Positions 33,485-35,655 of a stretch of DNA of 64,000 nucleotides are shown here, piece after piece. Each line of letters starts with the position of its first letter. Positions within the stretch are counted from its first letter, which is position 1. This DNA comes from Rotaria socialis. Lineage: Eukaryota. Below the pieces are notes generated by a model. It made no database searches, was not told the DNA's origin, and saw only the letters and a list, made by a program, of their open reading frames with translations. The stretch covers positions 62,001 through 126,000 of the forward strand of contig CAJNYD010000012.1 of the NCBI GenBank assembly GCA_905331295.1, in the 5' to 3' direction. The translations under genes and the position numbers were made by a program.

Positions 33485-35655
33485 ATGTCAATTGATATTA
33501 ATAACTCGCAATTGGATATTGACAATCTACTTGAGCGGCTGCTCGAAGGTCTGTTCAATATTATCTTTTTTTGATTAATACTCATAGTTAAATTTCCCTC
33601 TTTTCAAAGTGCGTGAATGTCATCTACCTGACAAGTTTGTTCAAATATCCGAACAGGAAATAAACCTCTTGTGTGAAAAATCGAAAGAAGTCTTCCTCAG
33701 TCAACCAATGCTTCTTGAACTCGAAGCTCCTATCAAAATATGCGGTAATATTATTTACTAGTTCTGAAGCTATCAATAGGTTAACATCTACAAACTTGGA
33801 ATTTTCCATGGAAATCGATTAATCCTAGCAAATATAGTTCTGTATATTCTTTCAGATCGCACACTGAATGCATATTGTAAAGATCGGCGCAGACATAAAA
33901 ATTGCTCGTTTAGATGTTTCAGAATATTTGAATAACACGTTCATTCGGGTATTTTTCACGAATTATCTTCGTTAGGCAATATTCACGGTCAATATACTGA
34001 TCTGCTTCGCCACTTCGAATCTGGTGGCTTTCCACCTAAATCCAACTATCTATTTCTTGGTAACTATATTGATAGAGGTAGACAATCTTTGGAAACAATT
34101 TGTCTTCTACTCGCTTACAAAGTTTGTTGACTTTCTGCACAGTCTAGATCCTATACATTTATTTTATTTTTATTAGACAAAATATCCTGATAACATTTTC
34201 TTACTAAGAGGAAATCACGAATGTGCCTCAATCAATCGTATCTATGGGTTTTACGACGAATGTAAGTATTGATCACATTTTCTACTACAGATACAGTGGT
34301 AAAACTATATCTGAAGGAGTTGTTATCTCCTGATATTCGCCTAGGACCCAGCGAATCTTATTTTGATGTTGCACATGCACAGAAGTAGATCGAGAGTTTT
34401 TGACAATTGTTTACATCGATATCTATAGGCAAACGACGGTACAACATCAAATTATGGAAGTCATTCAATGCCGTCAGTTCAATAAACTCTTTTTCGCTGA
34501 TAAAAATGTTTGTGCATTATCTGTTTAAGTGTTTCAATTGTCTTCCAGTAGCTGCTATTGTGGCCGGCAAAATCTTTTGTTGTCAGGGAGGTAATACTTT
34601 TTCTTTCTTATACTCAATATCTATTTATTGCTTTATTGTCTGAAGGCCTTTCACCTGATCTCCATAGCTTAGAACAAATTCAACAGATTCAACGACCGAT
34701 CGATGTGCCCGACGCTGGTGAGCAATACTTTTAATTCTTTCTACTTTGTTTTGTACTCTAAGAACTCACTGTAATTGCATTGATGCTGTTAAGTTGTATA
34801 AGACTGAACAGCAAAACAGATAAATAATGAGAAAATCGAATACGTCGATCATTTTCATCATTATTTGATTTGCGTCGCCTAGGTCTTCTTTTTGATCTAC
34901 TTTGGTCCGATCCGGACAATGACTTGAAACGTTGGAGTGAGAATGACGCCGGTATTTCGTTTAGATTCGGTGTTGATATAGTAAACGAAGTAAGTTATTA
35001 AACAAATCCTTCTTCAGTCGTTTTTTTTTATAAATGCTACCATATCAGTTTTTGAATCGACATAAGATGGACTTGATTTGTCGAGCACATCAGGTAAGAC
35101 AGTCTAAACAATTTTTTGTATATTTTGCTTCTTGTTAAAGGTCGTCAAAGATGGTTACGAGTTTTTCGCCGATCGCCGATTGGTCACTGTCTTTTCAGCT
35201 CCAGACTATCTTGGTTCATTCGAAAATGCAGGCGCACTCATGTCGGTCGACGCGAATTTAATGTGTTCTTTTATGGTATTCTGCGTTTCTTATTATCAAT
35301 GGTCAAGAGATAGTTCTTAGACGGTTATCAATTCTTGTTCCGACATGACCGCGTCTTAATTTCATCTTGTCCTGATCGAAAATTCGAGATAGATTTTTCA
35401 AAAATAATATGCTAATTCACTTTTTTCGGTTTTGATCCAATCTCAAATCGGTACTCACCTTGTGTTCTTTCTTTTTTATAGATTCTTCATTCAAGTAGTG
35501 AGCAAGCTAATGAACAAGACGATAAGAATCTAAAAGCGGACTGTCAAGCCCAATCTGTCAGTGACAATGTGATCAATCCATCTGTGACGAAAGTGGAAGG
35601 TTGTCAAAAATGTGTGAGCTGGGCTGACATGAACGACAGTGCATCCCCTCAATAA
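33485..35655 (+). CDS. PPP1C: Protein phosphatase 1 catalytic-subunit paralogue, predicted catalytically dead; 11 exons
   Basis: Spliced translation: [13 protein letters not shown]...[29 protein letters not shown]...[25 protein letters not shown]...[33 protein letters not shown]...[13 protein letters not shown]...DLLWSDPD...[11 protein letters not shown]...[31 protein letters not shown]...NLMCSFMI, plus a ~57-aa tail. All introns are GT-AG; no stops. Confidence 0.92.

What the first reader, a model, noticed from the sequence alone, without database searches (positions are those of the whole stretch)
33485..35300. Intact PP1 paralogue with four active-site substitutions: a PP1 pseudophosphatase
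Seen: an 11-exon gene with no stops or frameshifts and high similarity to PP1. Using human PP1 numbering: GDIHG becomes GNIHG (D64N, AAT 33978-33980); GDYVDRG becomes GNYIDRG (D92N, AAC 34062-34064); CHGG becomes CQGG (H173Q, CAG 34584-34586); ENDRG becomes ENDAG (R221A, GCC 34948-34950). H66, R96, N124/H125 and H248 are kept. The RVxF-groove residues (I169, L243, F257, R261, V264, M283, L289, C291, F293) are essentially conserved. Known: D64, D92 and H173 ligate the metals and R221 binds phosphate. Inference: changes concentrated at the active site, in an open frame with the docking surface preserved, look like a maintained dead enzyme (decoy, scaffold or regulator sponge) rather than random decay.
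Basis: partly seen in the sequence, partly recalled or inferred. Interest (0 to 1): 0.85.

Follow-up and report, generated by a model that had tools for sequence, protein, structure and literature searches.

The report
Dead PP1 with own docking tail
Bdelloid rotifers keep, under purifying selection, a copy of the major phosphatase PP1 that has lost key active-site residues and gained a tail motif like the one PP1's partners use to grip it, so it is likely a catalytically dead PP1 turned into a PP1-binding regulator.

Summary
The four substitutions are real and at the stated codons. The 11-exon gene runs 33485-35655 (exon 11 lies beyond the finding's end) and encodes a 355-residue protein identical to annotated Rotaria socialis proteins. 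It belongs to a PP1-derived clade found in three Rotaria and three Adineta species (support 100/99). Of 10 members compared, all have lost R221, 9 D92 and 8 D64; all 129 canonical PP1s keep them. Selection is purifying (omega 0.18 and 0.09) but relaxed compared with canonical PP1. Near-identical spliced contigs exist. Docking surfaces beside the RVxF groove are remodelled (Y78, Q294, K297, D166, E287). And exon 11 encodes K-C-V-S-W-A-D, an RVxF-type PP1-docking motif, found in 9 of 13 family tails examined and 1 of 100 canonical tails. Best reading: a pseudophosphatase whose tail likely docks on active PP1; the main rival is docking in its own groove. Activity and binding are untested, and the closest sister-species orthologue has lost the motif's tryptophan. 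PPP pseudophosphatases are known (PfPPP8); a PP1-derived one with its own docking motif was not found in ten literature searches.

The parts
33410..33484 (+). 5' untranslated region (minimum extent)
   Evidence: Contig of run X15 covers 33410-33545 and 33607-33745, 1 other letter, joined across intron 1
33485..33548 (+). exon 1 (coding start)
   Evidence: intron 1 joint
33610..33744 (+). exon 2
33976..34121 (+). exon 3: GNIHG (D64N, 33978-33980) and GNYIDRG (D92N, 34062-34064); also L75H, Y78S, V94I
34177..34261 (+). exon 4: RGNHE intact (N124, H125)
34429..34472 (+). exon 5: K147 and K150 (SDS22-binding lysines in human PP1) kept
34530..34590 (+). exon 6: D166A, E167G, H173Q (34584-34586)
34646..34717 (+). 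exon 7
34883..34989 (+). exon 8: C202F, R221A (34948-34950), V223I
35049..35093 (+). exon 9: D242, L243, H248 kept
35141..35275 (+). exon 10: F257, R261 kept; E252K; beta12-beta13 loop changed (N271D, C273L, E275S, D277E); E287A, Q294M
35482..35655 (+). exon 11: family-specific C-terminal tail of 57 residues and stop codon
   Evidence: intron 10 joint
35581..35595 (+). S-V-T-K-V, 11 residues before the motif's valine; S332 present in 8 of 8 aligned tails; possibly SILK-like (lead only)
   Evidence: compare I3 SLTIK in PMC10066265
35608..35628 (+). K341-C-V-S-W-A-D347: RVxF-type PP1-docking motif

Best explanation
The gene encodes a PP1 paralogue that has lost three metal ligands and a phosphate-binding arginine, is predicted to be catalytically dead, and likely works as a PP1-binding regulator by docking the K-x-V-x-W-A-D motif of its own tail into the RVxF groove of active PP1. 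Shown here: the intact spliced gene, the losses, one clade across six bdelloid species, purifying selection and the conserved tail motif. Inferred (about 0.9): no useful phosphatase activity, because D64N alone kills human PP1 and three more losses sit on top of it. Inferred (about 0.7): the tail motif binds some PP1 RVxF groove. Inferred (about 0.45): the main target is active PP1 in trans, which the tail would block from its targeting subunits or tether to whatever the dead body binds. Likely order: the tail motif and R221 loss came first (R. sordida member), then the metal site decayed in different ways in different lineages.
For: Dead site: R221 lost in 10 of 10 family genes, D92 in 9, D64 in 8, H173 in 7, H66 in 6 (H66 varies among Y, C, F), against 0 of 129 canonical PP1s. 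PP1gamma D64N is enzyme-dead (PMC8642546, passages). R96 and R221 bind the substrate phosphate (PMC13737739, passages). Maintained: omega 0.18 against L001 (231 codons; likelihood ratio vs omega=1 of 51.8, p=6e-13) and 0.09 against L002; NG86 bootstrap 0.10-0.25. Spliced contigs in run X9 join across introns 3-10 and one in X15 across intron 1. One clade, 100/99, with or without the catalytic columns. Motif: 9 of 13 family tails match an RVxF-type pattern, against 0.8-6% of their own shuffles and 1 of 100 canonical tails. V, W and D are each identical in 7 of 8 aligned tails, where mean pair identity per column is 0.30. Inhibitor-3 docks with KVEW; in PTG the motif RVVF is followed by Ala88 and Asp89, and Asp89 pairs with PP1 R261. 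For trans: the lysine two before the valine binds PP1 D166 in SCRIB. That lysine is kept in 6 of 6 motif-bearing genes with a full domain, while their own D166 is lost in 5 of 6. R. socialis still has a canonical PP1 (P0278).
Against: The closest R. magnacalcarata orthologue has lost the motif's tryptophan in 5 of 5 sequences (C in 4, R in 1). Two A. vaga genes and L002 lack the motif, and one R. magnacalcarata paralogue lacks the lysine. The position next to the valine is Cys, not Arg or Lys, in the window's protein. The family evolves much faster than canonical PP1: R. socialis versus A. steineri is 56/61 and 37/48 identical in the family, 61/61 and 48/48 in canonical PP1. The protein's own hydrophobic groove, R261 and D242 are kept, which fits cis docking as well. 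The clade includes one gene (P0126) with all metal ligands intact. A second R. socialis copy is annotated without exons 3-7 (P0274, P0282). Both RNA labels are guesses by the tool, and run X9 is a relative, not this organism.
Confidence: 0.45

Rival explanations
1. Self-capped pseudophosphatase: the tail folds back over a linker of about 40 residues and fills the protein's own RVxF groove, so the dead copy does not steal PP1's regulators and acts through other surfaces (SDS22 face, substrate grooves).
For: The motif sits 40 residues into the tail in 7 of 8 matching full-domain proteins and 38 in one. Own groove, R261 and D242 are kept. Surfaces used by outside regulators are remodelled, with new shared residues H75 and M294. 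R261H occurs only in three proteins whose motif is incomplete (P0091, P0196, P0127).
Against: Three other proteins with an incomplete motif keep R261 (P0011 type, P0243, L002). The p=0.045 printed left out P0243 and overstates the link. Own D166 is lost in 5 of 6 motif-bearing genes. Groove residues are also part of the beta-sandwich core (own knowledge), so folding alone may keep them.
Confidence: 0.25
2. Regulator or chaperone sponge: the metal-free body binds SDS22, Inhibitor-3 or RVxF regulators and titrates them from active PP1, and the tail motif is incidental.
For: SDS22 binds only PP1 lacking metal M1 (PMC10776994, passages and section 4). K147 and K150, needed for SDS22 binding (PMC11199634), are each kept in 9 of 10 family genes, and the alpha4-alpha6 face matches consensus in 172 of 220 cells against 72% overall. 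The hydrophobic RVxF groove matches in 80 of 100 cells.
Against: Y78 and Q294 are lost in 10 of 10 and K297 in 8 of 8; these contact PTG, Ki-67 and RepoMan. Three of six residues of the acidic patch named for Inhibitor-3 are lost in the query. It does not explain a conserved tail motif.
Confidence: 0.15
3. Slowly decaying redundant duplicate: selection only keeps it folded and non-toxic, and it has no role of its own.
For: Much faster evolution than canonical PP1, long branches, different lesions in different lineages, motif loss in the sister species, a second copy annotated without five exons.
Against: Open frames in genes from six named species and in two metagenome loci, one with saturated synonymous sites (dS above 1), and omega 0.08-0.18. 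59 of 130 invariant positions are unchanged in all 10 genes. R. sordida and A. steineri share the tail motif.
Confidence: 0.1
4. Phosphopeptide binder or enzyme with residual or altered chemistry, using the kept R96, N124, H125, H248 and Y272.
For: In the query these five are kept; R96, H125 and Y272 are each kept in 9 of 10 family genes. One member, P0126, keeps all metal ligands.
Against: R221 is lost in 10 of 10; the metal ligands vary freely among members; acidic-groove and beta12-beta13 residues are changed in the query.
Confidence: 0.05

Closest known systems
PP1 catalytic subunits (PPP1CA/CB/CC; best PDB sequence hit PP1-beta, 1s70_A)
   Same: About 72% identity over the catalytic domain, E=5e-157; the model's top Foldseek matches are PP1 structures; hydrophobic RVxF groove kept.
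   Different: D64N, D92N, H173Q, R221A; remodelled second groove and acidic patch; canonical tail replaced by a 57-residue tail with an RVxF-type motif.
PfPPP8 of Plasmodium falciparum (PMC10317984, passages)
   Same: PPP-fold pseudophosphatase in which GDxxDRG has become GNLINRG, the same Asp-to-Asn change; shown inactive and essential as a structural regulator.
   Different: Per the paper PfPPP8 has altered spacing between motifs; the word PP1 does not occur in its main text. The rotifer protein is a near-intact PP1 and carries a PP1-docking-type motif.
RVxF-type PP1 regulators: PTG (PMC9582199), Inhibitor-3 (PMC10066265), SCRIB (PMC13737739); passages
   Same: Basic residue, V-x-F/W core; Ala-Asp after the aromatic residue as in PTG; Trp as in Inhibitor-3; a Ser-led element 11 residues upstream (14 in Inhibitor-3).
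   Different: Here the motif is attached to a PP1 fold itself; Cys precedes the valine; binding is untested.
Predicted PPP-fold pseudophosphatases of kinetoplastids (PMC2175518) and fungi (Ppn2 group, PMC13216928); passages
   Same: Identified by mutated catalytic motifs.
   Different: The passages seen place them with PP2B or Ppn2, not PP1. The fungal paper cautions that yeast Ppn2 is still active despite being so classed. The kinetoplastid table of mutated sequences was not seen.

Membership tests
PP1 catalytic subunit (PPP family) | PPP catalytic domain with PP1-level sequence identity and fold | tested here: met
PP1 catalytic subunit (PPP family) | GDxHG and GDxVDRG metal-binding motifs | tested here: not met
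   GNIHG and GNYIDRG; motifs as given in PMC2175518
PP1 catalytic subunit (PPP family) | GNHE motif, H248, R96, Y272 | tested here: met
PP1 catalytic subunit (PPP family) | H173 and R221 | tested here: not met
   Q and A
PP1 catalytic subunit (PPP family) | Hydrophobic RVxF groove | tested here: met
   9 of 10 positions identical, L266V
PP1 catalytic subunit (PPP family) | Second regulator groove (Y78, Q294, K297) and acidic patch (D166, E167, E287) | tested here: not met
   residue lists
Pseudophosphatase | Catalytic residues lost while the domain is kept | tested here: met
Pseudophosphatase | Kept by purifying selection | tested here: met
   omega 0.08-0.18 in three pairwise comparisons
Pseudophosphatase | Transcribed and spliced | tested here: inconclusive
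   Spliced contigs for 9 of 10 introns in two runs whose RNA label is a guess; one is a relative
Pseudophosphatase | No measurable activity | not testable with these tools
   Inferred from D64N data
RVxF-type PP1 regulatory subunit | Basic residue followed by [V/I]-x-[F/W] | tested here: met
   KCVSW; definition in PMC13737739; the exact pattern used was recalled
RVxF-type PP1 regulatory subunit | Motif conserved within an otherwise variable region outside a folded domain | tested here: met
   9 of 13 tails; tail pLDDT under 50; exceptions
RVxF-type PP1 regulatory subunit | Binds PP1 through the motif | not testable with these tools
   No binding data; no complex model obtained

The most novel reading that the evidence does not exclude
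An animal PP1 duplicate has been turned into a PP1 regulatory subunit: a dead PP1 body that still offers an RVxF groove and an SDS22 face, plus a tail that grips active PP1. It would titrate or bridge both sides of the PP1 system, and the bdelloid family preserves the steps, from a member lacking only R221 to members with the whole metal site dismantled.
Probability: 0.3. Interest if true: 0.88.

Novelty: new variant of a known kind. Interest (0 to 1): 0.68.

Why it matters
PP1 is among the most conserved eukaryotic enzymes; 129 of 129 canonical sequences examined keep every active-site residue tested. [quoted passage not shown] A dead paralogue still about 72% identical to PP1, kept across bdelloid rotifers and carrying a PP1-docking-type motif, would be a clean natural case of an enzyme becoming a regulator of its parent. 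It also offers a natural metal-free PP1 for testing SDS22 and Inhibitor-3 models, and a graded series of lesions for dating the steps.

Tried and rejected
Assembly or sequencing error: rejected; identical protein on 5 contigs, and 8 DNA runs in 2 studies hold 80-94% of the stretch's words (one may be the source). Processed or frameshifted pseudogene: rejected; ten canonical introns and an open frame. A-to-I editing restoring the aspartates: rejected; it could not restore H173 or R221, and run X9 shows no other letter at 34062 at depth 4. Cyanotoxin sponge: not favoured, since C273 and the beta12-beta13 loop are changed (the toxin contacts are recalled). No RNA holder was listed as on record; this is no evidence either way. 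The RNA tables were cut, so the D64, H173 and R221 codons are not confirmed in RNA. Structure prediction was weak: pTM 0.46 and 0.65, tail pLDDT under 50 with no strand at the motif, so it says nothing on cis docking. No whole genome is held for this window, so paralogues were counted only from database proteins. The profile search added no family member among its best 120 of 7985 hits. A degenerate pattern gave 3 metagenome loci; L003 covers only exons 3-4 and was left out of dN/dS and trees. YN00 failed on the two saturated pairs. Sisterhood with bdelloid canonical PP1 was neither shown nor rejected (AU p=0.337). PMC7156037 gave no passage on inactivity, so plant PP7L is left out. Earlier scan notes held nothing on this gene.

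Full report
Observation. The gene has 11 exons from 33485 to 35655, ten GT-AG introns and a 355-residue open frame. The spliced protein equals P0009, annotated in Rotaria socialis under 4 listed accessions on 5 contigs. It is about 72% identical to vertebrate PP1-beta over the catalytic domain. No second copy lies in the window. Numbering follows PP1gamma P0152, in which the ten core residues fall at the human positions; the roles of H66, N124, H173 and H248 as metal ligands are recalled.

More than chance. All 129 near-full-length canonical PP1s in my hit set keep all 13 active-site positions tested. The query differs at 12 of 130 positions that are at least 98% invariant: 4 of 10 core positions and 8 of 120 others (p=0.0067). 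The other eight (V94I, C202F, V223I, E252K, N271D, C273L, E275S, D277E) lie beside the catalytic motifs, in the substrate grooves or in the beta12-beta13 loop; this placement rests partly and partly on recall. In PP1gamma, D64N alone is enzyme-dead (PMC8642546, passages), and R221 binds the substrate phosphate with R96 (PMC13737739, passages).

A family, not one broken gene. Searches found relatives in R. magnacalcarata, R. sordida, Adineta steineri, A. ricciae and A. vaga, in unnamed proteins and in three metagenome loci. L001 and L002 have GT-AG introns at all 7 positions between exons 3 and 10. Fifteen family rows form one side of a branch against 34 canonical PP1s at 100/99, and 12 against 20 at 100/99 with the catalytic columns removed. 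Among 10 genes compared, R221 is lost in 10, D92 in 9, D64 in 8, H173 in 7, H66 in 6, N124 in 3, H248 in 2, and R96, H125 and Y272 in 1 each. These 10 are not independent. The R. sordida member P0126 keeps every metal ligand, lacks only R221 and branches first (100/96, only 88/85). R. socialis also has a canonical PP1 (partial P0278). The searches list only the best 120 of thousands of hits and sampled no monogonont or acanthocephalan, so 'bdelloid-specific' is not shown.

Selection and expression. Over exons 3-10, omega is 0.18 against L001, 0.09 against L002 and 0.08 between them, and omega=1 is rejected each time (p at most 6e-13); NG86 gives 0.16 (bootstrap 0.10-0.25) for the unsaturated pair. 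Against L001, third codon positions are 74.5% identical, like four of five short introns (73-75%), while first and second positions are 90-93% identical. Constraint is still much weaker than on canonical PP1: 56/61 and 37/48 identical between R. socialis and A. steineri, against 61/61 and 48/48. I laid 4 of 16 listed runs. Contigs of X9 join across introns 3 to 10, and a 277-base contig of X15 with one other letter joins across intron 1; no joint for intron 2 was shown. Both are RNA only by the tool's guess. The X9 letters in exon 11 give the residues of P0011, so X9 reports a relative.

Docking surfaces. The hydrophobic RVxF groove is kept (9 of 10 positions in the query, 80 of 100 cells in the family). 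The surfaces around it are not. Y78 and Q294 are lost in 10 of 10 genes, K297 in 8 of 8 and L75 in 9 of 10; Y78, Q294 and K297 contact PTG (PMC9582199, passages), and Y78 and Q294 contact Ki-67 and RepoMan (PMC5005033, passages). D166, E167 and E287, three of six residues of the acidic patch named in PMC10066265 (passages), are lost in the query. K147 and K150, needed for SDS22 binding (PMC11199634, passages), are each kept in 9 of 10, and SDS22 binds only PP1 that lacks metal M1 (PMC10776994, passages and section 4).

The tail. Exon 11, outside the finding's coordinates, encodes a 57-residue tail with only 3 hits among 1.84 billion cluster representatives. It contains K341-C-V-S-W-A-D347 at 35608-35628. 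Nine of 13 family tails match an RVxF-type pattern (recalled form), against 0.8-6% of shuffles of those nine and 1 of 100 canonical tails; P0196 and L002 have short tails with no motif and are outside the 13. In 8 aligned tails V, W and D are each kept in 7, where mean pair identity per column is 0.30. The motif resembles Inhibitor-3's KVEW and PTG's RVVF followed by Ala88 and Asp89, where Asp89 pairs with PP1 R261. Against it: the closest R. magnacalcarata orthologue has lost the tryptophan in 5 of 5 sequences, although another paralogue in that species keeps it, and both A. vaga genes lack it.

Mechanism. Shown: gene, lesions, clade, selection, motif. Inferred: no activity (about 0.9), and binding of the motif to a PP1 groove (about 0.7). 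Whether it binds in trans or in cis is open. For trans: the lysine two residues before the valine binds D166 of PP1 in SCRIB, and it is kept in 6 of 6 motif-bearing genes whose own D166 is lost in 5. For cis: fixed spacing of about 40 residues, a kept groove, and R261H only in three proteins with an incomplete motif, though three others keep R261. I commit to trans docking on active PP1 at 0.45, with cis capping at 0.25; the two could alternate. The recurrent Asp-to-Asn changes would neutralise buried charges in a metal-free site (inference). Two single-chain models were too weak to decide, though the better one matches PP1 structures.

Prior art. [quoted passage not shown] Predicted cases exist in kinetoplastids (PMC2175518, passages; its table of catalytic mutations was not found among the 5 supplements held) and fungi (PMC13216928, passages). 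Ten full-text searches, read as listings, showed no PP1-derived pseudophosphatase, none in rotifers and none with its own RVxF motif; only three named pseudophosphatases with PP1 or PPP and one named bdelloids. The library lacks most subscription papers, including genome-wide phosphatase surveys that may list inactive PP1 paralogues in nematodes or flies (recalled, unchecked). PMC11626998 (passages) says both metals are essential. Earlier scan notes describe archaeal dead PPP domains (unchecked).

Verdict. A real, selected, PP1-derived pseudophosphatase family of bdelloid rotifers with a likely PP1-docking tail: a new variant of a known kind, interest 0.68.

Noticed in passing
window 31204-31821 (-): An open frame of 205 residues with a weak calcineurin-like phosphoesterase match (E=4e-4, just under the curated cut-off), lying head to head about 1.7 kb upstream of the PP1 paralogue. 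It did not match the PP1 protein.
   Followed up: partly
window about 32870-32950 (-): A tRNA-like stretch with apparent A and B boxes, by eye; ARAGORN and Rfam find nothing. Possibly a tRNA-derived repeat.
   Followed up: partly
window 10128-11410 (-): Two adjacent frames that together cover most of an aminotransferase class V domain (E=1.5e-37 and 8.6e-32), with long uninterrupted stretches; a candidate horizontally acquired gene, untested.
   Followed up: no
window 8974-9528 (+) and 15456-17787 (-): hAT transposase fragments (Dimer_Tnp_hAT, DUF4371); the second is broken into frames by a stop and a frame change.
   Followed up: no
window 24756-25533 (+), 57089-57562 (-), 796-1191 (-), 55020-55445 (-): Pieces of DnaJ, Sedlin, fasciclin and SH3 genes.
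   Followed up: no
window 58610-59887 (-): A 425-residue open frame with no Pfam match, in a stretch of strong GC skew (0.33).
   Followed up: no
proteins P0274, P0282: A second R. socialis copy of this family is annotated with exons 3-7 missing but with the tail motif intact: a deletion, a splice form or a gene-model error.
   Followed up: no
proteins P0125, P0126, P0275, P0276: Several tails end in a shared extension of about ten residues after the motif that the window's protein lacks.
   Followed up: no
L002 2780-1479 (-): The most dismantled member: 8 of 10 core residues changed, intron 1 absent, short tail, yet an open frame with omega about 0.09.
   Followed up: partly
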